A stretch of 64,000 nt of DNA from an archaeon (lineage in GTDB: Archaea; Nanobdellota; Nanobdellia; Pacearchaeales; GW2011-AR1), in the NCBI GenBank assembly GCA_030605415.1, contig JAUWIJ010000001.1, forward strand, positions 568-64,567, read 5' to 3'. The translations under genes were made by a program, and so were the position numbers. Below, in pieces: positions 9,814 to 35,790 of the stretch. The first letter of the stretch is position 1; the number at the start of each line of letters is the position of its first letter. The notes below the pieces were generated by a model. That model worked only from the letters and a program-made list of their open reading frames with translations. It was not told the DNA's origin and ran no database searches.

Positions 9814-12426
9814 ATGCCGTTTGATATAATTATTGGAAGAAACGAAAGCGACAAAAAAGCGTTCGGAAATAGAGGACTAGCTTTTATCGGGAAAAGTTTT
9901 GTTACAATGGGAAATTACACGTCGCTGTCGAACCCGATTTTCATGGACGTCGCTCGGTCGCATGTCATTCTAATAAGTGGAAAAAGAGGAAGCGGGAAAT
10001 GTCTTCACGAAGATAGCTTAATTAGTTTAGGAGACGGTTCTCAGGTTTCAATTAAAGATTTGGCTGAAAATTCTGAAAAGATTGTTTCAATGAATAATAA
10101 AATGAAAATGGAATTGGTGGATAAATCTAAGTTTTTTTCCAGAGAGGTTGATAAATTATTAAGTGTTAAACTAAGGAGTGGAAAAGAAATTAAATTAACT
10201 CCAGAGCATCCGCTTTTTACAGTGAAGGGGTGGATTCCTGTTGGTGAATTGGATGTTGGTAGTAGGATTGCGACTCCGAGGGTAATGCCGTGTTTTGGAG
10301 ATTTTCAAATGAAAGAGTGTGAGGTCAAGTTGCTTTCATACCTAATTGCGGAAGGGCATACTAAAAAAGTTGTTTTATTTTCTAATATGGATAAAGAAAT
10401 TGTTGAGGATTTTCGTGAAGCATTAAATAATTTTGATTCATCTCTAAGCTTAATTAAAGAACAAGAAGGTTGTTATAGAATTTCTGATCCTAATTGGAAG
10501 ACAAGTGTTTTGGAACATGATTTATCTCGGACTGATAAGGGGCAGTTTGTGAAAGGTACGAAAAATGTTTGTAGAAAAAGAAGTATTCGGGAATTGATTG
10601 AAAGGGAAAGTATTTTTGGAAAGTTGGCTGTCGAGAAATCCCTTTCTGATAATTTGATGAAACTAAGAAAGAAACAGATGATTTTGTTTTTAAATAGGTT
10701 GTTTAGTTGTGACGGGAGTATATATAAATCAAATAATTATTGGGAGATTTCTTATTCATCTTCTTCGGAAAAATTGATTTGTCAAGTTCAAAGCTTATTG
10801 TTGAGATTTGGTATTTTGTCTAAGCTGAGGGAGAAAAAAGTTAAATATAATGAGAAAATTTTTAATAGTTTTGAGTTGGTTTTGAATTCAGTTAATGTTG
10901 TGAGTTTTATTAAGCAAATTGGTTTTTTTGGACAGAAGGATGCTCGGATGGAAATTGCTCTTGAGGAAATTGATTTAGCCTCGAAGAATCCCAATGTTGA
11001 TATAATACCCAAGGAGATTTGGGATGGGTATCGTCCAAAGAATTGGGCAGAGATTGGTAGAAAATTGGGGTATAAACATCCTAAGGCAATGAGAGAAAGA
11101 ATTAGATATTGCCCTTCTCGAAATACTCTTATGAAGATTGCAGATGCCGATTCTCATGATTTATTTAAACGCTTTGCGAGTTCGGATATTTTTTGGGATG
11201 AGATTATTTCTGTTGATGTTTTAGAGGGAAATGCTACGGTTTATGATATTTGTGTTCCGCGTAATCATAATTTTGTTGCGAATGATATGATTGTTCATAA
11301 TAGCTACACAATTGGCACGATGGCTGAAGCGTTATCTGATTTGGGCGTCGAGGAGTCTGGGAATATAGCACCCTTGATTTTTGACACAATGGGAATTTTC
11401 TGGACGATGAAATATAAAAACGCAAAAGACGAAACCCTATTAGATGAATGGGAATTAGAACCAAAAAATATTCCAATGAGAGTTTTCGCCCCATTCGGTT
11501 ATTATCAAAAATATAAAGATAAGGGAGTTGATGTCGACGCTGAGTTTGCTATTAAAATTTCCGAGTTAGATTCGACAGATTGGGTCGCGCTTTTTGAGTT
11601 AAGGTTTACCGATGCGATTGCAGTTATAATTGAATCCGTAATCAGCGAGTTAAAAGAGTCAAAAGATAATTTTAGTTTTGAAGATATTTATAATTTAATT
11701 AGACGTGCGGAAAATGTTTCGCAGGAAGTCAAAAATTCGGCGATGGCATTATTCGATGCAGCGAAGAGCTGGAAGGTTTTTGACGAAGAAAAGGGAACAT
11801 CGGTCCGGGATTTGATTTCCGCAGGACGAACAACAGTGATTGACTTGTCGATGTATGCTTCGCTCGGAACTTTTAACGTCAGGGCTTTAATTATTAGTCT
11901 GGTTTCAAAGAAAATTTTTAATGAAAGGATGAGCGCAAGGAAAGACGAAGAAATTCAGGCAGTGCAACATGGTGCGGATTATGCGAGATATAAAATTAAA
12001 AGAGAGGTACCATTAGTCTGGATATTTATCGACGAAGCACACGAGTTTCTCCCCAGAGACGGAAAAACACCGGCGACAGATGCCCTGGTTCAAATATTAA
12101 GGGAGGGAAGACAACCCGGGATTTCAATAGTGATGGCGACGCAACAACCCGGAAAAATTCACACGGATGCGATGACCCAATCAGACATTATAATTTCACA
12201 TAGAGTCACAGCGAAGCTAGACGTCGACGCCCTAAATGACATTACGCAAAGCTATATGTATTCAAATATCTCGGAAAAAATTAACGGACTGCCTCGGCTG
12301 AAAGGTTCGGCTATTATTTTAGACGACAACTCGGAAAGAATTTATCCAATGAGAATCAGACCACGATGGACTTGGCACGGCGGCGAAGCACCGACAGCAA
12401 TCAAAAAAGTTGATGAAGAATTGTAG
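9814..12426 (+). CDS. HerA/FtsK-superfamily (COG0433-like) ATPase containing an intein
   Basis: Walker A GKRGSGK|C...HN|SYT is interrupted by the intein. Walker B VWIFIDEAHEF. ATQQPG motif. Confidence 0.8.
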   Translation: MPFDIIIGRNESDKKAFGNRGLAFIGKSFVTMGNYTSLSNPIFMDVARSHVILISGKRGSGKCLHEDSLISLGDGSQVSIKDLAENSEKIVSMNNKMKMELVDKSKFFSREVDKLLSVKLRSGKEIKLTPEHPLFTVKGWIPVGELDVGSRIATPRVMPCFGDFQMKECEVKLLSYLIAEGHTKKVVLFSNMDKEIVEDFREALNNFDSSLSLIKEQEGCYRISDPNWKTSVLEHDLSRTDKGQFVKGTKNVCRKRSIRELIERESIFGKLAVEKSLSDNLMKLRKKQMILFLNRLFSCDGSIYKSNNYWEISYSSSSEKLICQVQSLLLRFGILSKLREKKVKYNEKIFNSFELVLNSVNVVSFIKQIGFFGQKDARMEIALEEIDLASKNPNVDIIPKEIWDGYRPKNWAEIGRKLGYKHPKAMRERIRYCPSRNTLMKIADADSHDLFKRFASSDIFWDEIISVDVLEGNATVYDICVPRNHNFVANDMIVHNSYTIGTMAEALSDLGVEESGNIAPLIFDTMGIFWTMKYKNAKDETLLDEWELEPKNIPMRVFAPFGYYQKYKDKGVDVDAEFAIKISELDSTDWVALFELRFTDAIAVIIESVISELKESKDNFSFEDIYNLIRRAENVSQEVKNSAMALFDAAKSWKVFDEEKGTSVRDLISAGRTTVIDLSMYASLGTFNVRALIISLVSKKIFNERMSARKDEEIQAVQHGADYARYKIKREVPLVWIFIDEAHEFLPRDGKTPATDALVQILREGRQPGISIVMATQQPGKIHTDAMTQSDIIISHRVTAKLDVDALNDITQSYMYSNISEKINGLPRLKGSAIILDDNSERIYPMRIRPRWTWHGGEAPTAIKKVDEEL
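10000..11301 (+). mobile_element. Intein (434 aa) with LAGLIDADG homing endonuclease, inserted in the P-loop
   Basis: Begins with Cys (CLHEDSLISLGDGS, block A). Ends VHN followed by Ser. LAGLIDADG-like motifs LLSYLIAEGH and LNRLFSCDGSIY. Confidence 0.8.
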
Positions 12427-12439
12427 GAAACGTCTTTGA

Positions 12440-12520
12440 CGTTGCGGTTGGGAGTTAGGGGTTGGGAGTTGGGGGCGGGAAACTCCAAACTCCAAACTTC
12501 TAACTACCAACTGGAGAGGG
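12440..12520. repeat. Family-A G-rich repeat element (GGGAGTTGGG / CCAACT-type), intergenic
   Basis: gttgggagttaggggttgggagttggggg...aactccaaactccaaacttctaactaccaact. Related copies at 16845-16935, 19492-19572, 21258-21362, 31417-31555 and 32913-32965. Confidence 0.8.
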
Positions 12521-12562
12521 GGGAAATATTTATAAACAAGTCATTCTTAATATATTCAGAAA

Positions 12563-13234
12563 ATGGTGAAAAAAATTCAGATTAACATGTCGAACAAATC
12601 GTTTTATTCGTTGATTGTGTTTGGGGTTTTGATTTTGGCAGGCATTGGAGTTTACGCTTATAATTCTGGGGCTGACCCGTCGGTGATGGGGCATTCTATT
12701 GATGAGATTGAGGGATTGGGTTCTCTTATGGATAATTATTACACTAAAAGTGAAGTTTATACTCAAAGTGAAGTTTACACCAAAGAACAAATTGATGCTA
12801 TGATTTCTACAATAGAATCTGGCGGAACTGGATGTCCTGTAGGATATACACTTTATAAACAAAGCACTGAAACAGCGAAATGTTATAAGGATGGAAAGAT
12901 TATTACTATTCTATGGTATGCGTATGGTACAGTGATGAGTGGGCGTGACTGGCAGTGTGAAGGACGTATTAATAGTGGGAACCTTCAAACTCGCGCAACT
13001 TCCAACCCTGGAGATTATAATGAGGTTTCTAGTGGTTGGGTAGATGGAACAAGCGAAACATACCAAATGTATTATCCTCAATATAGAATTAGATGTGTTC
13101 CAAATTGGAAAGGAATGATTATGCAATATGAGAATTCAGTATATGGCACTCCAATGTGGCGCCCAACAGCGGAGTATCATCTAAGCCCAAAAGGGTATGA
13201 AGTTAGTTGGGGTAATGTTCTCCAAATTAATTAA
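12563..13234 (+). CDS. Secreted/TM-anchored protein with tail-fibre-like SEVYT repeats
   Basis: N-terminal TM/signal. 'KSEVYTQSEVYTKEQID' repeat. The first ~33 codons and the promoter are identical to the 19611 gene. Confidence 0.45.
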   Translation: MVKKIQINMSNKSFYSLIVFGVLILAGIGVYAYNSGADPSVMGHSIDEIEGLGSLMDNYYTKSEVYTQSEVYTKEQIDAMISTIESGGTGCPVGYTLYKQSTETAKCYKDGKIITILWYAYGTVMSGRDWQCEGRINSGNLQTRATSNPGDYNEVSSGWVDGTSETYQMYYPQYRIRCVPNWKGMIMQYENSVYGTPMWRPTAEYHLSPKGYEVSWGNVLQIN

Positions 13235-13300
13235 CTTCTGACATAATTAAAAATTAATTAAGTGTAATAATATTTATAAAGAGTTGAAAGATAAGATTTC

Positions 13301-13987
13301 ATGGGAGTTATCGCGAGCTCAAGTAACTGGATAGATTATGCCAATGCGGTTGGAGATTTTAATAAAGCTCATAGAAAAGATACCGTTGCTCAAGAGTATG
13401 GTTTAGATAGTAAAATTGCTCCCGGAATGTGGTTGGCTTCGCATATTCAGGGAAAGGAAAAAATTTCTGGCGTAAAACAAATTAAATTTCCCGAAGTGGT
13501 TCACGAGTGGGATTATTTTGAAATTACAAATACTAATGGGAAACCAAAAGAGAGAAATTATAAATTTAATTGTGAGGGCAAAAAAGTATGTGAAATTACA
13601 GGTGTTGCATTTCGAGATTACGATAGTCCCGCGGGAGATTTAGAAGACGTCCTCCATGAATACAAAACAGAGATAAGACAAAACCAAATCAATAACTATT
13701 GGAAATCTATCGGTCATCTTAAAGGAAACGGCAAGACTTTACCTAATATGTATTTAGCGTCACTGTTTGCTCCGGCTCTGTTAGATTTTGGAGAAAAAAC
13801 GGGATTGACAGGTTTTCATGCGACTCAAAATTTTCAAATTCATAAAGATTATTCCGAAGGGAAAATTAACTTTTTAATCGGGGACAGAAAAGACAGAGGA
13901 CCATTAAGTTTTTTGAAATTAAGAGGTTATCAAAATGGCGATATGGTAATTTCCGGAGGGGCAGGAATTCTTCTTTCTGATATGTAA
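13301..13987 (+). CDS. Hypothetical protein, possible MaoC/hotdog-like N-terminus
   Basis: GDFNKAHRKD...IAPGMWLAS resembles the MaoC dehydratase motif. Weak. Confidence 0.3.
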   Translation: MGVIASSSNWIDYANAVGDFNKAHRKDTVAQEYGLDSKIAPGMWLASHIQGKEKISGVKQIKFPEVVHEWDYFEITNTNGKPKERNYKFNCEGKKVCEITGVAFRDYDSPAGDLEDVLHEYKTEIRQNQINNYWKSIGHLKGNGKTLPNMYLASLFAPALLDFGEKTGLTGFHATQNFQIHKDYSEGKINFLIGDRKDRGPLSFLKLRGYQNGDMVISGGAGILLSDM

Positions 13988-14032
13988 TTATTTAACCTTA
14001 AAGCTCACTTGCCAACAGTATCTGTAAGCTCC

Positions 14033-14077
14033 AATATGGGCACAAATAAATTATAGTTTAAATGGTGCCCATATTTT
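14033..14077. repeat. Palindrome ATATGGGCAC-N21-GTGCCCATAT downstream of Fic. A second copy at 15000-15041 lies upstream of Fic
   Basis: atatgggcacaaataaattatagttt aaatggtgcccatat versus atatgggcacatgtttataaatgtttgttttgtgcccatat. Confidence 0.7.
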
Positions 14078-14080
14078 AGA

Positions 14081-14992
14081 TTAATCAAAAAAGTCTTTGA
14101 TGTTTTCTTCGAGTGTCTCAATTAGAAAAAAAAATATTAAATCATATTTTTCGTCGTTTGCTCCCCTTGTTGCTTGTAAGTATTTTTGTCTTTGTTTACT
14201 ATATATGTTTATCCAGGGATAGTTTTTTTTGCTTAGTAGAAAATTCATAATTAGTCTTGAAACTCTTCCGTTTCCGTCTATGAAAGGGTGGATTGTTACG
14301 AATTTCATTGAAACTAAGATTGCTAATTCGAATGGGGAGTAGTTGTTTTTATTTTGTTTATACCAGTAGAGTAAATTTCTTATTAGCTGCGGGACTTTTT
14401 CTGGGACAGGAATCTTGAAGGTGCTGCCGGTGATTCTTACATTTGTTTGTCTGTACTTTCCTGCAAATCTTTCTGAGATATCTTTTAGTATTATGGAATG
14501 TAGTTTTAGGATGAGTTCTTCGGTTAAATCTCCTTTGTATTCTTTTAGATAATTTAGTACCTTTTGGTGATTTTTTGCTTCGTAGATTTCTCTTATCGTT
14601 TTTCCTTCTGGTGAAATATTGTCGTTAATAATTAGAGATGTTTCTTGTAGTGAGAGTGTATTTCCTTCTATCGCGTTGCTGTTATAGGTTAGCTCTGTGA
14701 AAAATGCCTCTTCGAATTTTTCGAATTCGTCTTTGTTTAGTTTTTTAATTTCTTTGTTGTATTTGTTTTTTAGCGTTTCAATTCGAGTTGCTTGGTCTTT
14801 TTCTATGTAGTTGTATTTTTCTGCCATTAATTCTGTTTCGAATTTTTCTTTTAATTCTATTATTTCTTTTTTGGATTTTGTTCCCGTTCCAATGAATTTG
14901 CTTTTTTTAATCCATTTATTGTTAACTCGTTTGTTGTGGATTAGGTAATTTTGGGTTTCTCTATTAACTTTTCTTGTCTCATGATATACCAT
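14081..14992 (-). CDS. Fic/Doc family protein (AMPylase-like)
   Basis: Canonical Fic motif HPFIDGNGRVSRL. Confidence 0.85.
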   Translation of the reverse strand: MVYHETRKVNRETQNYLIHNKRVNNKWIKKSKFIGTGTKSKKEIIELKEKFETELMAEKYNYIEKDQATRIETLKNKYNKEIKKLNKDEFEKFEEAFFTELTYNSNAIEGNTLSLQETSLIINDNISPEGKTIREIYEAKNHQKVLNYLKEYKGDLTEELILKLHSIILKDISERFAGKYRQTNVRITGSTFKIPVPEKVPQLIRNLLYWYKQNKNNYSPFELAILVSMKFVTIHPFIDGNGRVSRLIMNFLLSKKNYPWINIYSKQRQKYLQATRGANDEKYDLIFFFLIETLEENIKDFFD

Positions 14993-15049
14993 ATTTATTT
15001 ATATGGGCACATGTTTATAAATGTTTGTTTTGTGCCCATATGAGATTTA

Positions 15050-15235
15050 TCATTTAACTTTAAATGTTGCTTGCCAACGGTATTTATAAGCTCCGATGTC
15101 GCCGGCTTTTCGGATTTTGATTTTGCCGATTTTACATAGAGTGTCTTTTTTTATTTCGTCCAAGACTTCTTCCCTTGTCCCAAACCCGTGATAAAAAATT
15201 ACCGTTCCCTTTTTAGAAGTCACTAAAATTACAAA
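15050..15235. repeat. Pseudo-copy (~180 bp, ~85% id) of the trm5 3' end
   Basis: Aligns with 16590-16770 (ttgccaacg.tat.tataagc.ccgat...ttcggattttgatt.tgccgatttta...cttcttcccttgtcccaaacccgtgata.aaaatta). A shorter 45-bp copy lies at 13995-14040. Confidence 0.85.
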
Positions 15236-15289
15236 TATATCTTATTTCTATTAACAATGGAAATTATATGACCAATATCTCCATTCTAA

Positions 15290-16579
15290 ATGGATAGTTT
15301 TATAAAGTCTATTCGTCATAGAATGTTTATGAATAAAATAGAGCTTAAAGAAATAATTTTAGATCAAAATAGGGAAAGAAAAGAAGAAAAGCTAATAGAA
15401 AGGGAAGTTTTTTCTAAAATTAAAGATTATGCAAAAAATCGTTTTGTAATAATTATTTCGGGGATACGAAGAAGTGGCAAATCAACATTATTGAGTCAAA
15501 TAAAGAATAAATATCCTGGTTATTATCTTAATTTTGACGACGACAGATTAGTCAATTTTAAATTAGAAAATTTTCAAATTTTATATGAAACTCTTATTGA
15601 GATATATGGTGAAAAAAATAATTTTTATTTTGACGAAATACAAAATATTGCGGGATGGGAAAGATTTGTCAGAAGATTACATGATGAAAGAGAAAAGGTT
15701 TTTGTAACTGGCTCTAATGCTTCTATGCTTAGCAGAGAGCTTGGAACTCATTTAACAGGAAGACATTTAGAAATGAACTTGTTTCCCTTTTCATTTAGAG
15801 AATTTTTAAATTTCAAGGAATTCAGTATAAATAAAAAATCAATTTACCTGACTAAAGAAAAAGCAAAAATAAAAAAATATTTTGAAGAATATTTATTAGA
15901 GGGAGGACTTCCGGAATATCTCAAGACCAATAATAAAGAATATCTTAAAACTCTTTATGATAATATTCTGTATAGGGATATAATAGTAAGATATAAGTTG
16001 TCAAATGAAAAAATTATAAAGGAGCTTGTTTATTTAGCCGTGACTAATATAGCAAAAGAAATAAGTTTCAATTCAATGAAAAAGTTATTGGGTTTTGGAA
16101 GTTCAACCACCGTAAAAGAGTATTTCAGTTATTTAGAGAACAGTTTTCTTATTTTTTTAGTGCCAAAATTTGACTATTCTTTAAAGAAACAAGTTTATTC
16201 AAATAAAAAAGTATACGTGATTGATAATGGTCTTGCGGTGAATTTAGGATTTAGATTTTCAAAAGATTCAGGCAAGTTGTTAGAAAATCTTGTGTTTGTC
16301 GAATTAAAAAGGAAGGGCAGAGAAATATTTTATTATTCTAATAAGCATGAATGTGATTTTGTCATTAGAGATAAAATGAAAATTAAAGAGGCGATACAAG
16401 TTTGTTATGAGTTTAATGAAGAGAATAAAAAGAGAGAGATTGAAGGACTGGTTGAAGCTATGGAAAATTTCAAATTGAAGAATGGCTTAATTTTAACTTA
16501 TGACCAAAATGAAGAATTTATTTTTAAAAAGAAAAATATAAAAGTTATTTCTGTTTGGAAATGGCTGTTAGAAGAATAA
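15290..16579 (+). CDS. AAA+ ATPase with DUF4143-type C-terminal domain
   Basis: Walker A IISGIRRSGKSTLL. Architecture matches the common archaeal 'ATP-binding protein (DUF4143)' family. Confidence 0.65.
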   Translation: MDSFIKSIRHRMFMNKIELKEIILDQNRERKEEKLIEREVFSKIKDYAKNRFVIIISGIRRSGKSTLLSQIKNKYPGYYLNFDDDRLVNFKLENFQILYETLIEIYGEKNNFYFDEIQNIAGWERFVRRLHDEREKVFVTGSNASMLSRELGTHLTGRHLEMNLFPFSFREFLNFKEFSINKKSIYLTKEKAKIKKYFEEYLLEGGLPEYLKTNNKEYLKTLYDNILYRDIIVRYKLSNEKIIKELVYLAVTNIAKEISFNSMKKLLGFGSSTTVKEYFSYLENSFLIFLVPKFDYSLKKQVYSNKKVYVIDNGLAVNLGFRFSKDSGKLLENLVFVELKRKGREIFYYSNKHECDFVIRDKMKIKEAIQVCYEFNEENKKREIEGLVEAMENFKLKNGLILTYDQNEEFIFKKKNIKVISVWKWLLEE

Positions 16580-16588
16580 AGGTTTTAA

Positions 16589-17503
16589 TCATCTAACCTT
16601 AAAACTCGCTTGCCAACGATACTTATAAGCCCCGATATCACCCGCCTTTCGGATTTTGATTCTGCCGATTTTATTTTTAGTGTCTGTTTTTATTTCGCTT
16701 AAAACTTCTTCCCTTGTCCCAAACCCGTGATAGAAAATTATTGTTCCTTTCTTTGAAAGTTTAAGCGCGGTTTTGAGAAAAGTATCTTTGAGGTTTGGTC
16801 GGGGCATCAAGATAATATCGAAGGTTTCGATATTATCAGGGATTAGGAATTTGGGATTTGGAATTTGTGGGAGCAGAGGACTACCAACTACAAACTCCCA
16901 ACTCCGAACTGGGGATGAGGATTTGGAATTAGGGACATGTCTAAGTTTTGTTGGTAATTTCTTCGCGTCGCCATCGACCAATGTTATATAATTTTGAAAT
17001 TTATTCAGAACAATATTTTTCTTCGCTGACTCATTCGCCTTTTTATTAAGTTCATTTGAAATTATGACCGCGTGTTTCCCCGCCTGTTTTAATTTTCTCG
17101 CAATAATAATTGGATAAGGAGCAACTCCGGCAAACATGACAAGGATTTTTGTGCCAGATTTTTTAGATAACTTAACAACCTCGTCGGCGATAATTTTTCT
17201 TTCATTTGACAACCGCGGAGAAAAATAAGATTCGTCGATATTAAATTTGAATACACACTGGTTTTCTCTGTATATTGTTTCCTTTGTTTTGATTCCCGCG
17301 AGGTGTTTTGTTTTCAAGATTCGAAGTTTTCCCGAGAAGCCTTCGGTTTTTTCGACGACAGTCATAACTGTTTTATTCTCTTTCAAAAATTTTCTTGCTT
17401 TTAATTTTTTAATTAACCATAAGGTTCGTCTTGGAAATTTTAGAATCGCGATATTTCCGAGGATGTCCTGAGGAATTTTTTTCATAAATAAATACAATTT
17501 CAT
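16589..17503 (-). CDS. trm5: tRNA (guanine37-N1)-methyltransferase Trm5 family, with in-frame repeat insertion
   Basis: FSPRLSNER and MFAGVAPY SAM-MTase motifs. Carries a ~30-aa insert (HVPNSKSSSPVRSWEFVVGSPLLPQIPNPKF) encoded by a family-A repeat at ~16845-16935. Confidence 0.7.
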   Translation of the reverse strand: MKLYLFMKKIPQDILGNIAILKFPRRTLWLIKKLKARKFLKENKTVMTVVEKTEGFSGKLRILKTKHLAGIKTKETIYRENQCVFKFNIDESYFSPRLSNERKIIADEVVKLSKKSGTKILVMFAGVAPYPIIIARKLKQAGKHAVIISNELNKKANESAKKNIVLNKFQNYITLVDGDAKKLPTKLRHVPNSKSSSPVRSWEFVVGSPLLPQIPNPKFLIPDNIETFDIILMPRPNLKDTFLKTALKLSKKGTIIFYHGFGTREEVLSEIKTDTKNKIGRIKIRKAGDIGAYKYRWQASFKVR

Positions 17504-17545
17504 AGATATAAAAAGTTTTGGAAGCGTTTCTGACGTTACTTTATA

Positions 17546-18271
17546 ATGACCTCATTTCAAAAGATTTATAAAGTCTTATTACTCGCTACAAATATCACTT
17601 GCAGGAAGAAGAGTTCTATCAAGATGGAAAATAAAATTTGGGCGGTTTGGATTTCGGGAATTTTTTTAGCTGTTGCGATTTTGTCAAATTCTGCGTACGC
17701 ATCAGAGAGCACTACCTCGGTAAATTTTACAATTATTTTAAATAACGATTCTCAGAATGAAAATCTTTTTAATGGTTCCGTTGAAAACTTAATTGTTGAA
17801 GACAAATCCTTCGACTGGATTTATTTATCCTGGGATAATCCAGATGGAATATTTTCAAATCTTATTTCTTTAGATAGATTTTTGATAGGAAATACATCTG
17901 GCGAATTTTTTAATATTACTAATTTAACCGAAAACACTTTGTATGATATTTCAATTATTAGCACAGATAATTCTTCCAATTACGGTCCAACAGTTAATTT
18001 GTCTGTAACAACTCTTAGCATAACAAACGGAAATGACGACGAAGAAAACGAAGAAGATAACGACAATTACTACAGAGAATATATCACTCCAAGTTACTTT
18101 TCGAATGACGATTCAAAGAAAAAAGAAAGTGTAACAATTTATTTAAATAACGGCTTCCCAAAAATATCCAAATCCTTTTCATGGCTGAACTCATTTCTAA
18201 TATCCATTAGTTTAGCTATCTGCATTTTAACATTATCAATTTCTATTTTAATAGTAAATAGAAAATATTAA
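17546..18271 (+). CDS. Membrane-anchored secreted protein with FN3-like domain and acidic stretch
   Basis: N-terminal TM. 'DWIYLSWDNPDG...YDISIIS' FN3-like region. DDEENEEDND. C-terminal TM. Confidence 0.4.
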   Translation: MTSFQKIYKVLLLATNITCRKKSSIKMENKIWAVWISGIFLAVAILSNSAYASESTTSVNFTIILNNDSQNENLFNGSVENLIVEDKSFDWIYLSWDNPDGIFSNLISLDRFLIGNTSGEFFNITNLTENTLYDISIISTDNSSNYGPTVNLSVTTLSITNGNDDEENEEDNDNYYREYITPSYFSNDDSKKKESVTIYLNNGFPKISKSFSWLNSFLISISLAICILTLSISILIVNRKY

Positions 18272-18316
18272 CAATTTCCAAAGATATAAAAAGGTTGTTT
18301 GATTTGATTTATTGAG

Positions 18317-18607
18317 GTGAAAATGTTATCTGATATTCCAAAAAGCTTAGAGAAAGTTTCTGGCGCTAATTTAGATAAAGAAATTCTTAGAGTTGGAATA
18401 ATTGCCGAACTTGATGCTATTTCCTTATACGAACAGTTATCTGCCACGACAAAGGATAAAAATTTAAAAAAAGTTTTATTGGATATTGCGAAAGAAGAAA
18501 AAACTCATGCAGGAGAATTTGAAGAATTACTAAAAAGGACAGATAAGGAATATGCTAAAGAAATTGAATCTGGAAAAGAGGAAGTGGAAGAATTAACAAG
18601 CAAATAA
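18317..18607 (+). CDS. Ferritin-like/rubrerythrin-like small protein
   Basis: E...EEKTHAGEFEE ExxH-type diiron-like motif. Confidence 0.35.
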   Translation: MKMLSDIPKSLEKVSGANLDKEILRVGIIAELDAISLYEQLSATTKDKNLKKVLLDIAKEEKTHAGEFEELLKRTDKEYAKEIESGKEEVEELTSK

Positions 18608-18879
18608 TGGCAAAGAAAAAAAAGGTGAGCAAAATGAAAGTTTCTGAGGATTCTTGGTTTAGAAAAAGAACCGAAAATTCAGAAAAAAGCTGGGGTTTTA
18701 TTCCAGTTAATTGGAAAGGCTGGGTAGCTTTAATTTTACTGATTGGAGTAAATGCTTTTGCGGCGAATTATTTTGATGTAATGAATGTTAGATTTAGAGA
18801 AGTGAGCAAATTTCTGGTCGTGTTTTTGTTTTCACTTGTTGTTTTTATTCTAATTGCGAAAAAGAAGACAAAAGTTTAG
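18607..18879 (+). CDS. Small membrane protein
   Basis: Two predicted TM helices. Start overlaps the upstream stop. Confidence 0.3.
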   Translation: MAKKKKVSKMKVSEDSWFRKRTENSEKSWGFIPVNWKGWVALILLIGVNAFAANYFDVMNVRFREVSKFLVVFLFSLVVFILIAKKKTKV

Positions 18880-19050
18880 TTCTGAGTTCTTTCCCAAGAC
18901 CGCTCATTCCTCGCTCTTAGATCTCAGACCGCTCATTTCATTCACTCTTAGAACCACCCCCGGGACGTGCCCCCTTCCCCCTCTAAGTTCTGAGAGCGAA
19001 GCGGTCTGAGTTCTGAGTTCTAGTTGGAGTTCTCAGTTCTGCAAGATTAG
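18880..19050. repeat. Family-B repeat element (GAGTTCTGAG tandem + 'gaccgctcatttcattcactcttaga' core)
   Basis: Shares the core with 35470-35790 (inverse orientation) and 55545-55730. Confidence 0.8.
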
Positions 19051-19084
19051 AAAACTATTAAAGTAAAAGAATCTATTATCTTTA

Positions 19085-19492
19085 ATGAGTTATAGGTTTT
19101 TGGAACATATGGCCGATGTGAAGTTTCGGGCTGAGGGTCCAACAATTGAAAAAGCATTTATTTCGGCGGCCGATGCGTTAAATGAGACGATTCGGGGAGA
19201 TATTAAAATTTTAGAACAGCAGGAAAAAAGTTTTGAGATTGAGGGCAAAGATGCGGAAAGTTTGCTATACAATTTTTTAGAAGAATTTTTATTTTTATTG
19301 GACGCTGAAGATTTTTTGACTGCAAGAATAAAGTCGATTTCAATTAAGCAAAATAAGTTAAGTTGCATTATTGTCGGCGATAATGCAGAACACTACAAAT
19401 TCACAAACGACGTAAAGGCAGTGACCTATAACGATATGTTTGTCCGCGAAGAAAATGGGAAGTTTATTTGTCAGGTTGTCTTGGATGTATAG
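19085..19492 (+). CDS. Archease
   Basis: N-terminal FLEHMADVKFRAEGPTIEKAF matches the archease signature (F.yL.HTADv..ra.G.tleEaF). Confidence 0.8.
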   Translation: MSYRFLEHMADVKFRAEGPTIEKAFISAADALNETIRGDIKILEQQEKSFEIEGKDAESLLYNFLEEFLFLLDAEDFLTARIKSISIKQNKLSCIIVGDNAEHYKFTNDVKAVTYNDMFVREENGKFICQVVLDV

Positions 19493-19610
19493 GTTAGGTG
19501 TTTGGGGTTCGGAGCGGGGGGGACTACTAACTCCTAACTACCAACTTCTAACTACCAACTGGAGAGGGGGGAAATATTTATAAACAAGTCATTCTTAATA
19601 TATTCAGAAA

Positions 19611-20108
19611 ATGGTGAAAAAAATTCAGATTAACATGTCGAACAAATCGTTTTATTCTTTGATTGTGTTTGGGGTTTTGATTTTGGCAGGCATTGGAGTT
19701 TACGCTTATGGGACTTCTAACCCTGCTGTTTTTGGGCATAGTGCTGGAGAGATTGAAGGTTTAGGAGAATTATTAATTCCTTCTGGGGCTGTGATGGCGT
19801 TTAATTTAGCAAGTTGCCCGTCTGGCTGGAGTACATATGCTTCTGCAAAAGATAGAGTTATTGTTGGTTCAGGAAGTTCATATTCTCTTGGTAAAAAAGG
19901 CGGAGCAAAAACACATACATTGACAATTGCTGAGATGCCGAAGCATAGACATGCATATACAAATGCAGGAAATTTTGGAGGGGGAGGGAAACATTATCCC
20001 TCTGGATATAGTCCTCAGGAAATGACTTACACTGATTATGTAGGTGGCAACCAACCTCACAACAATATGCAACCATATATTGCACTTTTATATTGTCAGA
20101 AAAATTAA
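19611..20108 (+). CDS. Phage tail-collar domain protein with N-terminal TM/signal
   Basis: THTLTIAEMPKHRHAY...HNNMQPY motif of the tail-collar (microcystin-dependent protein-like) domain. N-terminus is identical to the 12563 gene. Confidence 0.6.
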   Translation: MVKKIQINMSNKSFYSLIVFGVLILAGIGVYAYGTSNPAVFGHSAGEIEGLGELLIPSGAVMAFNLASCPSGWSTYASAKDRVIVGSGSSYSLGKKGGAKTHTLTIAEMPKHRHAYTNAGNFGGGGKHYPSGYSPQEMTYTDYVGGNQPHNNMQPYIALLYCQKN

Positions 20109-20267
20109 AATTTTTTCCTGAAAAATCGGGAATAAATCTTGAAATCATTTTAGAAATATAATATTTCTCAAATTAATAAAAACTATTTTTTATAAAGGGT
20201 ATTATTGATTTAGGGAACAGAATAAACAGAACAGAAGATTTATTAATTTGAGAAGTATCTTTTTATA

Positions 20268-21782
20268 ATGAAATTAAAAAAAATTAGCAATGTCGAATGG
20301 GAAATTCCTATCGAGGGCAAAATGAATGTTCCGGGAAGAATTTTTGCCAGCGAGGAAATGGTTAAAAATTTTGACGATAAGTGCTTAGAGCAAGTGAAAA
20401 ATGTTGCGAAATTGCCCGGGATTCTGAAAGCAAGTTATGCTATGCCAGATATGCATTTGGGCTACGGTTTTCCAATCGGCGGAGTCGCTGCGTTTGACAT
20501 TGACAAAGGTGTAATTAGTCCGGGTGGCGTCGGCTATGACATTAATTGTTCTGTGCGTTTATTGAAAACGAATTTGAAAGCGGAGGATTTAGTTGGTAAA
20601 GAAAAAGAGTTGGCACATTCGTTGTTTCGCACGGTGCCGTCGGGAATTGGTAGAAAAGGTAAAATTTTATTAGATGCTAAAGAACTAGATGAAGTTCTAA
20701 TCGGCGGGGCACAATGGGCTGTTAAAAAAGGTTATGGACAGAAAGAAGATTGTTTGCATATTGAAGAAGAGGGAAAAATGGAAGGAGCAAATCCGTCGGC
20801 AGTGTCGCAGAGAGCGAAAGGCAGAGGAATGTCTCAACTGGGTTCTCTCGGCGCAGGGAATCATTTTTTGGATGTATTAATTGTTGATGAGATTTTTGAT
20901 GAAAAAGTTGCAAAAGTTTTTGGTCTGGAAATTGGACAGATTGTGATTTTAATTCATTGCGGTTCGAGAGGGCTCGGACATCAGGTCGCGTCAGATTATA
21001 TTAAATTGATGGAAAATAAATATGGTTATCCGGATTTTGACAGAGAGTTAGTAAACGCGCCGATTAAGTCCGAACTCGGACAGAAATATCTGGGAGCGAT
21101 GGCGGCCGCGGCGAACTTTGCATTCGCAAACAAACAAATAATTACTCATTTCGTCCGCGAAAATATGAAACATTATTTTCCAAATTTTAAAGCAGACGTC
21201 GTCTACGATATCTGTCATAACATTGCGAAATTTGAGAAGCACGACGTAGGAACGAAGAACTCAAAACTCAGAGGGTTAGGTGTTAGGAGTTTGGGGTTAG
21301 GGGAGACTACCAACTACCAACTACCAACTATCAACTACCGACATCCGACATCCGACATCCGAAAACAAACGGTTCTCATCATGAGAAAGGGAGCGACCCG
21401 AAGTTTTGGTCCGGGCAGAGAAGAAATCCCAGAAGATTACAGAGAGGTTGGTCAGCCAGTTTTACTACCAGGCTCGATGGGAACACCAAGTTATGTTTTA
21501 TGCGGAACCAAAAAAGCAGAGGAAATTTCTTGGGGCTCGACGGCACACGGAGCAGGTCGGGTCAAAAGCAGAACTCAGGCGCATAGAGATATGAGTTTCA
21601 ACGACGCCAAAAAAGATATGGAAAAGCGGGGCGTGTTTGTTGAGTTCGGAGGACAAAAGGGTTTGGTAGAAGAATCACCATTTTCATACAAAGATGTCGA
21701 CGAGGTTGTCCGAATTTCTGACGAAGCAGGAATTGGAAAGAAAGTTGCGAAGCTGAAACCGGTTATTGTCATAATAGGATAA
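20268..21782 (+). CDS. rtcB: RNA-splicing ligase RtcB with in-frame repeat insertion
   Basis: GGVGYDINCSVR, HCGSRGLGHQ and HNIAKFEKHDV...RKGATR motifs. A ~40-aa insert (GTKNSKLRGLGVRSLGLGETTNYQLPTINYRHPTSDIRKQT) is encoded by a family-A repeat at 21258-21362. Confidence 0.9.
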   Translation: MKLKKISNVEWEIPIEGKMNVPGRIFASEEMVKNFDDKCLEQVKNVAKLPGILKASYAMPDMHLGYGFPIGGVAAFDIDKGVISPGGVGYDINCSVRLLKTNLKAEDLVGKEKELAHSLFRTVPSGIGRKGKILLDAKELDEVLIGGAQWAVKKGYGQKEDCLHIEEEGKMEGANPSAVSQRAKGRGMSQLGSLGAGNHFLDVLIVDEIFDEKVAKVFGLEIGQIVILIHCGSRGLGHQVASDYIKLMENKYGYPDFDRELVNAPIKSELGQKYLGAMAAAANFAFANKQIITHFVRENMKHYFPNFKADVVYDICHNIAKFEKHDVGTKNSKLRGLGVRSLGLGETTNYQLPTINYRHPTSDIRKQTVLIMRKGATRSFGPGREEIPEDYREVGQPVLLPGSMGTPSYVLCGTKKAEEISWGSTAHGAGRVKSRTQAHRDMSFNDAKKDMEKRGVFVEFGGQKGLVEESPFSYKDVDEVVRISDEAGIGKKVAKLKPVIVIIG

Positions 21783-23839: not shown

Positions 23840-25201
23840 ATGAAAAAAGAATTGGTGGCTGGATTCGTTTTAATTTTACTCGGTAGTTTTGTAGTTATTG
23901 CCGGAACGTGCGACGACGATCAGACAATTATGAGATTATATAGTGCTTCAAATTCGCATGTTTCTTTCTGGAATGAAGATACCGCAGATTATACGGTAGA
24001 GATTTGCTTTGATGAAATTTTCGGTTCAACATATACCGGAGCAAACCCGCATGATTGCACCGGAGAAAATAAAGTTTTAAGTTTATTTGATGTAGAGAAT
24101 TCTCATGCATCGAGCACAGCCGATAGTAACTATAATAATGAAGTTTGTTATGGACGTTTAAAATGCGTTTACGATAGTAGTGATAATGATGAATGTTCAA
24201 ATGACGGGAAAATCGTAGCGAGAATGTACAGCGAATACAATACTCATGTTTCGGTTGCATCAGATACAAATTATGACGTGAAAGTTTGCTGTAAAGCATC
24301 GGAAGCTTATTGGGCAAACATGAATGGCGATAGAATTACCGAAGCAGATTTTGGCGATACGGTTAAATTAGTTTTGACAGGTACTTCTGATATTCATGAT
24401 TTTGAAATTTTCGAAGAAGACGATGGAATAATAGGATTCCTTACTGGCGGTGACGATTCAATTAAAACTGTGACAGGAAGCGCAACTGACGGTAATCTTA
24501 TTACCAAATGGACGATAACACAAGAAGATTTAGACAAGACAAATGATTATGATAATTTTAGGTTTATGGCTAATGGCGAGATAAGCAAAGATTTGAAAAT
24601 CAATTTAAATGGTGATGATAGCGAAATGGATGTTACAATTTCATCTCCAAAATGTGGCTCGCATTTTGATGAGGGTACAGAAATTACTATTACCGTTGAT
24701 GCTAATGACGCTGACGATGCAATTGAAGGAACCATTACTATTGACGGAGATGTCGTAAAAACGTTTAGCAACGGAGGCATTACCTTTAATAAAATTTTCA
24801 GTTCATCAGGCAATTCCCAAATTGTTGTCGAAGCGGTTAACAGCAGAGGAAAAAATGTTAGAGCAATTTCTAATATTATGGTTTTGGATAAGGAAGCTGG
24901 AAGTTATGTTGATGGTAAATATGTCGCGGCATGTATTGCAAAACCTAAAGATTATAGTAACATTGACGGAAGCGTAGTTGAGTTTGATGCTTCGACCACT
25001 AGAGCCATAAAAGTTGTTAACGGAGTTCTTGATTTGCTTGTGCCCGACGAGGGTGATGTTTTTAGCTGGTATTGGAAATTTATGCCAGAAAACATAGTCA
25101 GAGAGTTTATTCAGAGTTCCGAATCTATTGCATACAAATTTACCGCAGAGTTTCCTATTGCCGGAGATAATTCAGCGACGCTAAGAGTTGAAATAGATTA
25201 A
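23840..25201 (+). CDS. Paralogous secreted Cys-rich surface protein
   Basis: Signal peptide. Three 'S-x-N-[ST]-H' modules. C-terminal domain ~75% identical to 21819's (ISNIMVL...FPIAGDNSATLRVEI). Confidence 0.5.
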   Translation: MKKELVAGFVLILLGSFVVIAGTCDDDQTIMRLYSASNSHVSFWNEDTADYTVEICFDEIFGSTYTGANPHDCTGENKVLSLFDVENSHASSTADSNYNNEVCYGRLKCVYDSSDNDECSNDGKIVARMYSEYNTHVSVASDTNYDVKVCCKASEAYWANMNGDRITEADFGDTVKLVLTGTSDIHDFEIFEEDDGIIGFLTGGDDSIKTVTGSATDGNLITKWTITQEDLDKTNDYDNFRFMANGEISKDLKINLNGDDSEMDVTISSPKCGSHFDEGTEITITVDANDADDAIEGTITIDGDVVKTFSNGGITFNKIFSSSGNSQIVVEAVNSRGKNVRAISNIMVLDKEAGSYVDGKYVAACIAKPKDYSNIDGSVVEFDASTTRAIKVVNGVLDLLVPDEGDVFSWYWKFMPENIVREFIQSSESIAYKFTAEFPIAGDNSATLRVEID

Positions 25202-31416: not shown

Positions 31417-31555
31417 GACTGGGAATTTGGGACACGAGCTAGGTATTTGGTATTTGGGATTTGGGATTTGTGGGAGCAGGGGACTACCAACTACAAACTC
31501 CCAACTCCGAACTGGGGATGGGGATTTGTGAGAAACAGGGAAGGGGATTGGAAGC
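31417..31555. repeat. Family-A repeat element, intergenic; ~75 nt near-identical to the copy inside trm5
   Basis: gatttgtgggagcaggggactaccaactacaaactcccaactccgaactggggatgggga matches 16858-16932 with 2 mismatches. Confidence 0.85.
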
Positions 31556-35469: not shown

Positions 35470-35790
35470 AAAAACAAGAAGTTTTTCCAGAGCTTAGAAC
35501 TCGGTGGACAGGAAGTCCAGAGCTTAGAACTCGATGGACAGAAAGTCCAGAACTCAGAACTGAGAACTGAGAACTCAGAGGGGGCAACCGACGGGGAAGC
35601 GGGGGGTTGCTCTCAGAGTGAATGAAATGAACGGTCTAAGTTCTGAGTTCTCAGTTCTAGGGAGTGAAACGACCTCTAAGAGTGAATGAAATGAACGGTC
35701 TGAGTTCTGAGTTCTAGGGAGTGGAACGACCTCTAAGAGCGAATAAAATGAGCGGTCTGAAATCTCAGATCTGAGTTCTATTTTAAAACA
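35470..35790. repeat. Family-B composite repeat element (largest copy, internally duplicated)
   Basis: Contains two copies of 'tctaagagtgaatgaaatgaacggtctgagttctgagttc' and 'ccagagcttagaactcg(g/a)tggacag(g/a)aagtcc' modules. Confidence 0.8.

What the first reader, a model, noticed from the sequence alone, without database searches (positions are those of the whole stretch)
12497..19706. Two tail-fibre-like genes share an identical ~165-bp promoter + signal-peptide module but divergent C-terminal domains
12497-12663 and 19540-19706 are essentially identical. They span a family-A repeat tail, a TATA-like 'atttataaa', the start codon and the first ~33 codons (MVKKIQINMSNKSFYSLIVFGVLILAGIGVYAY). 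Downstream, one gene has SEVYT tail-fibre-like repeats and the other a phage tail-collar domain (THTLTIAEMPKHRHAY…HNNMQPY). Shared 5' modules with variable C-terminal 'heads' suggest cassette-type diversification (recombinational head switching) of surface adhesins, or co-regulation through identical promoters. Tail-collar domains are phage/receptor-binding associated, which is unusual as a membrane-anchored cellular protein in an archaeon.
Basis: seen in the sequence. Interest (0 to 1): 0.6.

Follow-up and report, generated by a model that had tools for sequence, protein, structure and literature searches.

The report
Gene-converted leader on modular surface proteins
Two genes of a tiny symbiotic (DPANN) archaeon carry the same ~170-bp promoter-plus-export-signal because one copy recently overwrote the other, and both belong to a large undescribed family that joins this conserved front end to many different binding domains, some like phage tail-fibre tips, which are swapped between loci and genomes.

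Summary
Window 12495-12661 and 19543-19709 are identical except for one synonymous base; the looser repeat is 12481-12661 / 19529-19709 (181 nt, 98%). The block holds the 3' arm of a palindromic repeat, a BRE/TATA-like promoter about 26 nt before the ATG, and codons 1-33 of two complete genes (223 aa and 165 aa).

Comparison with syntenic contigs from relatives shows a sharp recombination breakpoint at codon 33/34 (Fisher p = 1.4e-12). The 5' end of gene A was overwritten by the copy at the archease-RtcB locus, which is gene conversion.

The ~50-residue leader (charged N-region, 20 uncharged residues, V-Y-A|Y-G, then GTSNPxVFGHSxxEI) heads at least 609 protein clusters (2,394 at E<=1e-3). All genome hits are DPANN archaea. 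It always sits at the N-terminus and is joined to dozens of unrelated small heads.

Gene B's head is a phage tail-fibre-tip (gp10_C/collar-class) domain. Gene A's head has no known fold.

A relative has the same leader at the same archease-RtcB slot but an unrelated head, so heads are exchanged over evolutionary time. Nothing indicates programmed switching: no silent cassettes, no recombinase, and the repeats are direct.

The function as exported adhesins for host recognition is inferred, not shown.

The parts
12445..12512 (+). Palindromic heptamer-repeat element ((GGTTGGGAGTT)n ... (AACTNCN)n) between the stop of the upstream ATPase gene and the promoter of gene A. Its 3' arm lies inside the shared block.
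   Evidence: Hairpin -43.3 kcal/mol, z = -6.65. Heptamer pattern found at 5 sites in the window, 17 matches against 0.05 expected.
12481..12661 (+). Repeat copy A (perfect core 12495-12661): repeat tail + promoter + codons 1-33. This is the recipient of the gene-conversion tract.
   Evidence: Breakpoint analysis.
12523..12536 (+). BRE-like GGGAAA + TATA-like TATTTATAAA. The ATG lies 34 nt after the first T of TTTATAAA, which implies a (nearly) leaderless mRNA.
   Evidence: Sequence reading. Conserved in relatives L015/L017/L064. Archaeal promoter geometry is from general knowledge, so function is inferred.
12563..13234 (+). Gene A (223 aa, P0001): leader (aa 1-33), post-leader motif NSGADPSVMGHSIDEIEGLG (aa 34-53), short stalk with SEVYTQSEVYTKEQIDAMI (aa 63-81), Cys-containing beta-rich head (aa ~86-223) of unknown fold.
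   Evidence: ORF. Only 6 head homologues. AF2 gives head pLDDT 70-90. No significant PDB or BFVD match.
19493..19560 (+). Degenerate copy of the palindromic heptamer-repeat element, directly after the archease stop codon and upstream of gene B.
   Evidence: (family D4).
19529..19709 (+). Repeat copy B (perfect core 19543-19709). Probable donor of the conversion tract.
   Evidence: The leader is closest to the leader at the orthologous slot in L060, 85-88%.
19571..19584 (+). BRE/TATA-like promoter of gene B, identical to that of gene A.
19611..20108 (+). Gene B (165 aa, P0007): same leader (aa 1-33), GTSNPAVFGHSAGEIEGLG (aa 34-52), tail-fibre-tip head of the gp10_C/collar class (aa ~56-165; ..THTLTIAEMPKHRH..QPHNNMQPYIALLYC).
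   Evidence: Pfam PF21939. PHROG tail-fibre families. 213 homologues. AF2 pLDDT 80. Foldseek 9nxk_A E = 7.7e-5 and 6ov6. PDB profile hit 9qgo tail fibre.
19085..19492 (+). Archease gene, the left flank of the slot that holds gene B.
   Evidence: Pfam PF01951, 5e-36. Syntenic in L060.
20268..21782 (+). RtcB RNA ligase gene, the right flank of the slot that holds gene B.
   Evidence: Pfam PF01139, 1e-157. 85-87% nt identity to L060.
9814..12426 (+). Intein-containing ATPase gene, the left flank of gene A. Used as a synteny anchor.
   Evidence: Pfam Intein_splicing and LAGLIDADG_3. 88% aa identity to the L017 neighbour.
13301..13987 (+). 228-aa gene of unknown function, the right flank of gene A. 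Used as a synteny anchor.
   Evidence: 78% aa identity to the L017 neighbour.

Best explanation
The two genes belong to a large family restricted to DPANN archaea (Pacearchaeota / Woesearchaeota / Nanoarchaeota). Its members are small exported proteins built from a conserved 5' module and an interchangeable C-terminal head.

The 5' module consists of:
- its own BRE/TATA promoter giving a nearly leaderless mRNA;
- a ~12-residue positively charged N-region (..I.IN.SN[KR]);
- exactly ~20 uncharged residues ending G-V-Y-A|Y-G. This fits the -3/-1 rule of signal peptidase I, but could instead be an uncleaved N-in/C-out anchor;
- a conserved motif, GTSNPxVFGHSxxEI.

Some heads are phage tail-fibre-tip folds.

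Shown:
- The 167-181-bp identity in this window is a recent non-reciprocal homologous recombination (gene conversion). It replaced the promoter and codons 1-33 of gene A with the sequence from the archease-RtcB locus (gene B).
- Such 5' homogenisation recurs in other genomes.
- At a syntenic slot the leader is conserved while the head is replaced.

Inferred:
- The conserved leader DNA acts as the 5' homology anchor for head exchange.
- Identical promoters co-express the paralogues.
- The proteins are surface-displayed or secreted binding proteins (adhesins) used by the episymbiont to recognise host surfaces, analogous to phage receptor-binding proteins with a constant N-terminal part and variable tips.
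For: **Breakpoint and direction of conversion**
- In the alignment of winA, winB and the A-orthologue L017, sites up to +99 read winA=winB!=L017 at 36 positions against 1 of the opposite kind. After +99 the counts are 14 against 40. Fisher p = 1.4e-12 (alignment).
- L017 is syntenic to locus A: ATPase 88% aa, 228-aa gene 78% aa.
- The window leaders differ by 1 synonymous site in 33 codons. dS to relatives is 0.5-2.9.
- The window leader is closest to the leader at the orthologous archease-RtcB slot of L060 (85-88% nt) and further from the A-locus orthologue (76%). This indicates B to A.

**Recurrence in other genomes**
- L001 tandem pair: leader 89%, upstream 60 nt 83%, heads unrelated.
- L004/L009, same MAG on different contigs: upstream 85%.
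- L064 tandem pair shares lineage-specific substitutions.
- Within-contig leader identity has a median of 70% against 61% between contigs, p = 7e-4.

**Head replacement**
- L060 is syntenic to window 16647-21782 at 77-89% nt. Between leader and RtcB it has an unrelated 288-aa head.
- The RIO kinase / leader gene(s) / SRP54 slot holds different heads in different genomes.

**Family**
- The leader profile finds 2,394 representatives at E<=1e-3 and 609 at E<=1e-10. The match is always at residues ~1-60 of proteins 60-370 aa long.
- There are at least 42 head clusters among 168 sequences.
- All 12 genome loci come from DPANN MAGs, plus one MAG labelled 'Methanosarcinales'.
- No Pfam, NCBIfam or PDB model covers the leader.

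**Leader features**
- -3 = V in 157/175, +1 = Y/F, uncharged stretch of 20 residues (IQR 20-20), net charge +3 in the N-region.
- A at -1 is invariant in the profile alignments.

**Head B** is a tail-fibre tip. Other heads include Peptidase_S74, Collar, BclA_C and C4.
Against: - Function and localisation are untested. No signal-peptide predictor could be run, and the AF2 monomer cannot tell a cleaved signal from an anchor.
- The direction B to A rests on two relatives from different organisms. L017 and L060 are not one genome (86% identity in their overlap). A conversion in the L017 lineage cannot be excluded.
- The L015/L017 pair comes from one metagenome but is not proven to be one genome. 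Their contig coverages in a second sample differ (39x and 11.8x).
- No conserved 3' junction for head exchange was found, so whole-gene replacement with a convergent leader is not fully excluded.
- Only 64 kb of a 162-kb contig was visible, so further copies in this genome are unknown.
- Head A has no structural relative, so 'binding domain' is a guess for it.
Confidence: 0.7

Rival explanations
1. Recent duplication of a promoter-leader cassette that fused to pre-existing head sequences, rather than conversion between two pre-existing leader genes. This would be birth of a new gene by module capture.
For: The block begins inside a repeated palindromic element that occurs at 5 sites in the window and could carry or seed such a cassette. 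L060 shows a duplicated promoter/ATG remnant ~54 nt upstream of its leader gene, a scar of rearrangement.
Against: Gene A already had a leader before the event. Its orthologues in L017 and L064 have leader + A-head, and winA from codon 34 on is orthologous to L017, including the post-leader motif. Leader + collar genes are also old and widespread.
Confidence: 0.1
2. A programmed antigenic or phase-variation system in which heads are switched behind a single expression module by site-specific recombination or by conversion from silent cassettes. Models are Mycoplasma vsa/vpma, Neisseria pilE/pilS and shufflons.
For: The architecture resembles these systems: conserved 5' UTR + signal sequence with variable mature parts (PMC2268961). 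Head content differs between relatives at fixed slots.
Against: Both genes are complete and each has its own promoter. No promoterless head copies exist in 64 kb. No recombinase lies between or beside the genes; the neighbours are Fic, AAA_14/DUF4143, TRM5, EncFtn-like, archease and RtcB. No inverted repeats link the genes. The repeats are direct, so crossover would irreversibly delete 7 kb of housekeeping genes.
Confidence: 0.05
3. Assembly artefact: a collapsed or consensus repeat in a metagenome assembly makes two diverged 5' ends look identical, or joins unrelated loci.
For: The block length (167-181 bp) is in the range of short-read and k-mer lengths. The source is a metagenome-derived contig.
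Against: All junctions of locus A and the outer junctions of locus B are seen independently in other assemblies and samples (L017/L018, L060/L061), and the leader-to-collar-head join recurs in many homologues. One base still distinguishes the copies. The same phenomenon, less extreme, is seen in unrelated assemblies.
Confidence: 0.03
4. Identity is maintained purely by selection on the nucleotide sequence (promoter, 5' mRNA, signal peptide) without recombination.
For: The promoter and the first codons are conserved across genomes. Leaderless mRNAs may constrain the first codons.
Against: Orthologous leaders differ at many synonymous sites between relatives (dS 0.5-0.7), so these sites are free to change. 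Paralogues within a genome nevertheless share the same synonymous states, and a sharp breakpoint exists.
Confidence: 0.02
5. The genes are tail-fibre genes of an integrated or degraded virus of the archaeon rather than cellular genes.
For: Head B and several other heads of the family are phage tail-fibre domains.
Against: The genes sit singly between housekeeping genes that are syntenic across relatives: archease/RtcB, RIO/SRP54 and RNase P p30/TatD. No other virion genes are adjacent. The proteins are short (60-370 aa) with an N-terminal signal/anchor, unlike virion fibres.
Confidence: 0.05

Closest known systems
Mycoplasma variable surface lipoprotein families (vpma of M. agalactiae, vsp of M. 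bovis, vsa of M. pulmonis)
   Same: These are multigene families in reduced-genome, host-attached microbes. The 5' untranslated region and the signal-peptide coding region are highly conserved among paralogues, while the mature parts are unrelated (PMC2268961).
   Different: The Mycoplasma genes are clustered, share one promoter, and are switched by an adjacent tyrosine recombinase (Xer1/HvsR) through inversions. Here the genes are dispersed and each has its own promoter. No recombinase or invertible sites were found. The signal is not a lipoprotein signal.
Modular phage receptor-binding proteins / tail fibres (conserved N-terminal attachment part, exchangeable C-terminal tip; T4 gp10/gp12 collar-class tips; fibres carrying the Peptidase_S74 chaperone)
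   Same: A constant N-terminal part is joined to horizontally exchanged heads. Head B shares fold and sequence with phage fibre tips. Other family members carry Peptidase_S74, Collar and BclA_C domains. Recombination breakpoints sit at the constant/variable junction.
   Different: These are cellular archaeal genes with a signal/anchor in place of a virion-docking domain. They are very short and are not linked to virion genes. Trimeric state was not tested.
Concerted evolution of outer-membrane adhesin paralogues by gene conversion (e.g. Helicobacter pylori babA/babB, Neisseria opa); from general knowledge
   Same: Dispersed paralogues have near-identical 5' ends, including the signal sequence, homogenised by short-tract gene conversion. 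Binding regions are divergent.
   Different: This case is in archaea, and the tract also includes the promoter. The heads here are non-homologous folds rather than diverged versions of one domain.
Cellular 'microcystin-dependent protein' MdpB / phage-tail-collar proteins of bacteria (e.g. Bizionia argentinensis C24, PDB 6ov6)
   Same: Gene B's head belongs to this class..HTH.LT..EMP.H.H...HNN.QPY motifs, and a Foldseek hit to 6ov6 with probability 0.9.
   Different: The bacterial proteins lack this leader. The Pfam Collar N-terminal half is not detected in gene B.
Type IV pilins / archaeal class III signal-peptide proteins
   Same: A conserved N-terminal hydrophobic helix is followed by variable beta-rich domains. 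The full-length gene A model weakly resembles pilins and pseudopilins (E 0.08-1.6, not significant).
   Different: There is no [KR]-[GA] cleavage motif directly before the hydrophobic stretch; the residue after K/R is variable and bulky. A 10-14-residue conserved N-region precedes it.

Membership tests
Gene conversion / concerted evolution of paralogues | Paralogues within a genome are more alike than orthologues between genomes, in a delimited tract | tested here: met
   Codons 1-33: winA vs winB 99%; winA vs orthologue L017 76%. Flanks are syntenic at 78-88% aa.
Gene conversion / concerted evolution of paralogues | Statistically supported breakpoint with discordant phylogeny on the two sides | tested here: met
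   36:1 against 14:40 informative sites, Fisher p = 1.4e-12.
Gene conversion / concerted evolution of paralogues | Homogenisation includes synonymous and non-coding sites | tested here: met
   The promoter is identical. There is 1 synonymous difference in 33 codons, against dS 0.5-2.9 to relatives.
Phage tail-fibre tip, gp10_C/collar class (gene B head) | Match to Pfam PF21939 Gp10_C at or above the gathering score | tested here: met
   27.3 bits against a cutoff of 27, which is marginal. Supported by PHROG tail-fibre families at 2e-15 to 1e-7.
Phage tail-fibre tip, gp10_C/collar class (gene B head) | Match to Pfam PF07484 'Phage Tail Collar Domain' | tested here: not met
   No hit even at E <= 10. 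Some homologues do carry PF07484.
Phage tail-fibre tip, gp10_C/collar class (gene B head) | Fold similarity to solved tail-fibre tips | tested here: met
   Foldseek 9nxk_A (phage Pa223 tail fibre) E = 7.7e-5, probability 1.00; 6ov6 probability 0.9; T4 gp10 weak. TM-scores are low (0.3) because the full-length monomer model was used.
Phage tail-fibre tip, gp10_C/collar class (gene B head) | Homotrimeric assembly | not testable with these tools
   Only monomer AF2 was available.
Phage tail-fibre repeats (gene A 'SEVYT' repeats) | Profile or fold match to a tail-fibre repeat family | tested here: not met
   No Pfam hit at E <= 10. The only PHROG hit is E 0.26, of unknown function. No PDB or BFVD fold match.
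Sec-type cleavable signal peptide | Positively charged n-region, hydrophobic h-region, small residues at -3 and -1 | tested here: inconclusive
   N-region net +3; 20 uncharged residues; -3 V/I/T/A in 173/175; -1 A invariant; helix-breaking G at -4/-6. No predictor or experiment was available, so an uncleaved anchor is equally compatible.
Archaeal class III (type IV pilin-like) signal peptide | [KR]-[GA(S)] cleavage motif immediately before the hydrophobic stretch | tested here: not met
   The residue after the K/R is S, I, M, V, A, W, L or Y across the family.
Programmed cassette switching (vsa/vpma, pilE/pilS, shufflon) | Silent, promoterless variable cassettes | tested here: not met
   tblastn of 270 family proteins, and blastn of both heads against the window, find only the two expressed genes. 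The rest of the genome was not visible.
Programmed cassette switching (vsa/vpma, pilE/pilS, shufflon) | Adjacent site-specific recombinase and inverted recombination sites | tested here: not met
   Neighbouring genes have no recombinase domains. No inverted repeats join the two genes, and the repeats are direct.
Diversity-generating retroelement target | Template repeat ~80-90% identical to the 3' end of the target gene | tested here: not met
   No second copy of either head in the window. A reverse transcriptase was not searched for systematically.

The most novel reading that the evidence does not exclude
The conserved leader (promoter, signal/anchor and the GTSNPxVFGHSxxEI motif) defines a DPANN-specific system of 'cellular receptor-binding proteins'. 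In this reading it is a dedicated export/docking module that displays a recombining repertoire of phage-like and novel binding heads on the episymbiont surface. The leader DNA doubles as a portable homology anchor, letting heads move between fixed genomic slots and between genomes. This would set or shift host specificity in the way tail-fibre exchange does for phages.
Probability: 0.3. Interest if true: 0.8.

Novelty: new variant of a known kind. Interest (0 to 1): 0.6.

Why it matters
How DPANN archaea recognise and attach to their hosts is an open question, and very few candidate molecules exist for the uncultured Pacearchaeota and Woesearchaeota.

This analysis turns a two-copy repeat into a defined, searchable family: a 54-position leader profile with at least 609 confident clusters. 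Its architecture and evolution are what is expected of host-interaction proteins. The family has a constant export module and dozens of fast-evolving heads that are replaced between genomes, some of them homologous to phage receptor-binding tips. It occupies conserved genomic slots and shows recurrent gene conversion.

The family gives concrete targets for binding assays, cryo-ET labelling and host-range prediction. It is also a clear archaeal example of concerted evolution confined to promoter + signal sequence.

Tried and rejected
**Searches that found nothing or failed**
- The exact-pattern scan of JGI metagenome contigs for the DNA module found nothing. The window's own genome is also not among the GTDB representatives, so further copies in the same genome could not be counted.
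- The third homology search, with the 52-aa leader alone, returned nothing for technical reasons (too few shared words).

**Negative results on the module and leader**
- Rfam found no RNA family in the module.
- The sigma-70/terminator scan is not informative for archaea.
- NCBIfam, Pfam and PDB have nothing matching the leader.

**Ideas considered and dropped**
- A double-glycine-type leader (S..E[IL]..G.G resemblance). The motif follows a transmembrane helix and the spacing differs.
- A class III pilin signal, because there is no [KR][GA] site.
- A weak tblastn hit of a leader to 36614-36766. That ORF is a presenilin/SPP-type protease (PF06550), so the hit is only hydrophobic similarity.
- No shared 3' junction element behind the different heads was found.
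- The initial assumption that L015, L017 and L060 are one genome was rejected. The L017/L060 overlap is only 86% identical, and the argument was rebuilt on three separate relatives.

Full report
**Observation**

Reading and aligning the two regions and comparing base by base at offset 7048 shows an ungapped block. It runs 12495-12661 = 19543-19709: 167 nt with 166 identical. The single difference, at 12610, is a synonymous TCG/TCT. The repeat finder reports the looser block 12481-12661 / 19529-19709 (181 nt, 98%). A 56-nt probe occurs exactly twice, against 0.00 expected.

The block holds, in order:
- the 3' arm of a palindromic heptamer-repeat element (AACTTCTAACTACCAACT);
- GGAGAGGGGGG;
- a BRE-like GGGAAA and TATA-like TATTTATAAA (12523-12536 / 19571-19584);
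- the ATG (12563 / 19611);
- 33 codons, MVKKIQINMSNKSFYSLIVFGVLILAGIGVYAY.

The TATA element lies ~34 nt before the ATG. By standard archaeal promoter geometry (general knowledge) this implies a nearly leaderless mRNA. Between relatives, codons 2-12 differ only at synonymous positions, which confirms the first ATG as the start.

**The genes and their surroundings**

Gene A (12563-13234, 223 aa) follows an intein-containing ATPase and precedes a 228-aa gene. Gene B (19611-20108, 165 aa) lies between archease and RtcB. After the identical 33 codons the proteins stay similar for ~20 residues (..P.V.GHS..EIEGLG) and then become unrelated.

Evidence on gene B's head:
- It matches Pfam Gp10_C (27.3 bits; cutoff 27) but not Pfam Collar.
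- It matches PHROG tail-fibre families down to 2e-15.
- It has 213 homologues.
- Its AF2 model (pLDDT 80) hits the Pseudomonas phage Pa223 tail fibre (E = 7.7e-5, probability 1.0) and Bizionia C24.
- A profile hits a solved tail fibre, 9qgo.

Evidence on gene A's head:
- It has only six homologues and four conserved cysteines.
- Its model is moderately confident and beta-rich (pLDDT 70-90 in the head).
- It has no significant relative in PDB or BFVD.
- Its SEVYT repeats are real but are not linked to any tail-fibre family.

**A large leader family**

Many hits share only the N-terminal ~50 residues. A 20-sequence leader profile (A2) was searched against 1.84 billion representatives. It found 2,394 proteins at E<=1e-3 and 609 at E<=1e-10. 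The match was always at residues ~1-60 of short proteins, 60-370 aa.

Among 168 leader proteins the C-terminal parts form at least 42 BLAST clusters. Pfam recognises only a few of them: Peptidase_S74 x4, Collar x2, Gp10_C, BclA_C, C4 and Shufflon_N. Nothing covers the leader, and NCBIfam and PDB also have no match. A scan of one genome per species found 12 loci. All are in Nanoarchaeota/Pacearchaeota/Woesearchaeota MAGs, plus one MAG labelled Methanosarcinales.

Leader features:
- an N-region of median 12 residues and net charge +3;
- an uncharged stretch of exactly 20 residues (IQR 20-20);
- V at -3 in 157/175, invariant A at -1, Y/F at +1;
- then invariant P, G-H-S and E.

This fits a signal-peptidase-I site (V-Y-A|Y-G) but equally fits an uncleaved N-in anchor. 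It does not fit a class III pilin signal, because there is no [KR][GA] site.

**Why the 5' ends are identical: gene conversion**

Three related organisms could be compared.

L017 (R1) is syntenic with locus A: ATPase 88% aa, A-type gene, 228-aa gene 78% aa. L060 (R2) is syntenic with window 16647-21782 (TRM5, archease 78%, RtcB 85-87% nt). L017 and L060 are not the same genome, since their overlap is only 86% identical.

In the alignment, winA equals winB and resembles L060 through codon 33. From codon 34 onward, winA follows its orthologue L017 (NS..P.VMGHSIDEIEGL).

| Region | winA=winB, differs from L017 | winA=L017, differs from winB |
|---|---|---|
| Left of +99 | 36 | 1 |
| Right of +99 | 14 | 40 |

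Fisher p = 1.4e-12.

The paralogues differ at 1 synonymous site in 33 codons, while dS to the relatives is 0.5-2.9. The event is therefore much younger than the split from those relatives. The window leader is closer to the L060 leader at the orthologous slot (85-88%) than to the A-locus orthologue (76%). The most parsimonious direction is B to A.

The tract's 5' end lies inside the palindromic element that precedes both genes. That element may have supplied homology or been copied along with the tract.

**Recurrence elsewhere**

The same pattern appears in other genomes: a near-identical block of ~40-60 nt of promoter plus the leader, followed by unrelated heads.
- L001, a tandem pair: leader 89%, upstream 83%.
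- L004/L009, one MAG on different contigs.
- L064, where an A-type gene shares lineage-specific substitutions with its tandem neighbour.

Across 58 distinct leader genes, within-contig leader identity exceeds between-contig identity (median 70% against 61%, p = 7e-4). The window is the most recent and most complete case.

**Head exchange**

In L060 the leader at the archease-RtcB slot is 85-88% identical to the window's. That is above the 99th percentile of between-genome leader identity, 76.7%. The 288-aa head behind it is nevertheless unrelated to the collar head.

Homologues of that head sit at an RNase P p30/TatD slot in two other relatives. Collar-head genes of other relatives sit in a RIO-kinase/SRP54 slot. 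In different genomes that slot holds one to three leader genes with different heads.

Head A evolves faster than its neighbours: 53% aa identity and dN/dS 0.41, against 78-92% and 0.02-0.20. No common 3' junction sequence was found.

**What it is not**
- No promoterless head copies exist in the window.
- No recombinase lies nearby; the neighbours are Fic, AAA_14/DUF4143, TRM5/TYW2, an EncFtn-like protein, archease and RtcB.
- No inverted repeats link the genes.
- The repeats are direct, so a crossover would delete 7 kb including archease and TRM5.
- No Rfam family lies in the module.
- An assembly artefact is unlikely because the junctions are reproduced in independent assemblies and one base distinguishes the copies.

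**Interpretation**

Shown:
- the repeat;
- the gene-conversion breakpoint;
- the leader family and its DPANN restriction;
- the tail-fibre-tip nature of head B;
- head replacement at a syntenic slot.

Inferred:
- export through the leader, whether cleaved or anchored;
- co-expression from identical promoters;
- a role for the leader DNA as the homology anchor for head exchange;
- an adhesin or host-recognition function.

**Closest analogues**
- Mycoplasma vpma/vsp/vsa families have a conserved 5' UTR and signal peptide with variable mature parts, but are clustered and driven by a recombinase (PMC2268961).
- Modular phage receptor-binding proteins.
- Gene-converted adhesin paralogues of bacteria (general knowledge).

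I found no paper describing this leader family or tail-fibre-like proteins in DPANN.

**Verdict**

This is a new variant of a known kind. It is of moderate to good interest because it yields a defined candidate family for DPANN host recognition.

Noticed in passing
window 21236-21364 (inside RtcB) and 16808-16945 (inside the TRM5/TYW2 gene, minus strand); also 31441-31528: Copies of the same palindromic heptamer-repeat element ((..GGGAKTT)n / (AACTNCN)n) are inserted in frame inside two housekeeping genes. They add ~37-38 residues, and the RtcB Pfam match is split in two. Both insertions are absent from the orthologues in L060 (RtcB 466 aa against 504 aa). This resembles the Rickettsia palindromic elements that insert into coding genes.
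   Followed up: partly
window 43563-43665 and 43746-43806, 43909-43969, 44159-44219: Rfam finds an intron-containing tRNA (59.5 bits), while ARAGORN reported no tRNA in the whole 64 kb. It is followed by three direct repeats of its 3' end (..GAGTCCTCCCGAAAGCGTAGCTGAGT..), which look like stacked attachment-site scars of integrated elements.
   Followed up: partly
window 14034-14074 / 15001-15041, and 15046-15218 / 16585-16757: The Fic/DOC gene (14081-14992) is bracketed by 41-nt inverted repeats (ATATGGGCAC...GTGCCCATAT). The adjacent AAA_14/DUF4143 ATPase gene is bracketed by a 173-nt direct repeat (83%) that duplicates the 3' end of the TRM5 gene. In relative L017 the 228-aa gene appears to abut TRM5 directly. 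The Fic + ATPase segment therefore looks like an insertion between the two leader genes.
   Followed up: partly
window 9814-12426: The ATPase upstream of gene A (weak Zot/AAA matches) carries a full intein with a LAGLIDADG homing endonuclease (Intein_splicing 6e-27, LAGLIDADG_3 5e-20).
   Followed up: no
window 21819-23795 and 23840-25201: These are two paralogous secreted proteins (658 and 453 aa; internal DNA repeat 71%). They have repeated 'SST.NAH' motifs, DUF4215-like Cys repeats and a Big_7 domain. The 658-aa gene is missing from the syntenic relative L060, where RtcB is followed directly by the homologue of the second gene.
   Followed up: partly
L060 1950-2046: Upstream of the leader gene in the relative there is a second, displaced copy of the module's promoter and start (AAATGTTTATAAAG...TAGAAAATGGT). 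It is followed by a ~43-nt insert and then the real ...TAGAAAATGGTG start. This is a rearrangement scar at the slot where the head was exchanged.
   Followed up: partly
window 35783-36769 (minus strand); L001 6718-7644, L005, L019: A presenilin/signal-peptide-peptidase homologue (PF06550, 8e-16) is encoded in the window. In three other loci its homologue lies within ~1 kb downstream of leader genes. This could be coincidental synteny or a link to processing of the leader.
   Followed up: no
L004, L012, L013, L053, L054, L062, L063: A conserved slot, RIO-type kinase (minus) / 1-3 leader genes (plus) / SRP54 (minus), recurs in several DPANN genomes with different head types in each. The adjacency to SRP54 is striking for genes whose conserved part is a signal/anchor sequence.
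   Followed up: partly
window 20161-20180 / 20239-20258: A 20-nt inverted repeat (95% complementary, 58 nt apart) lies in the intergenic region between gene B and RtcB. It has no counterpart in L060.
   Followed up: no
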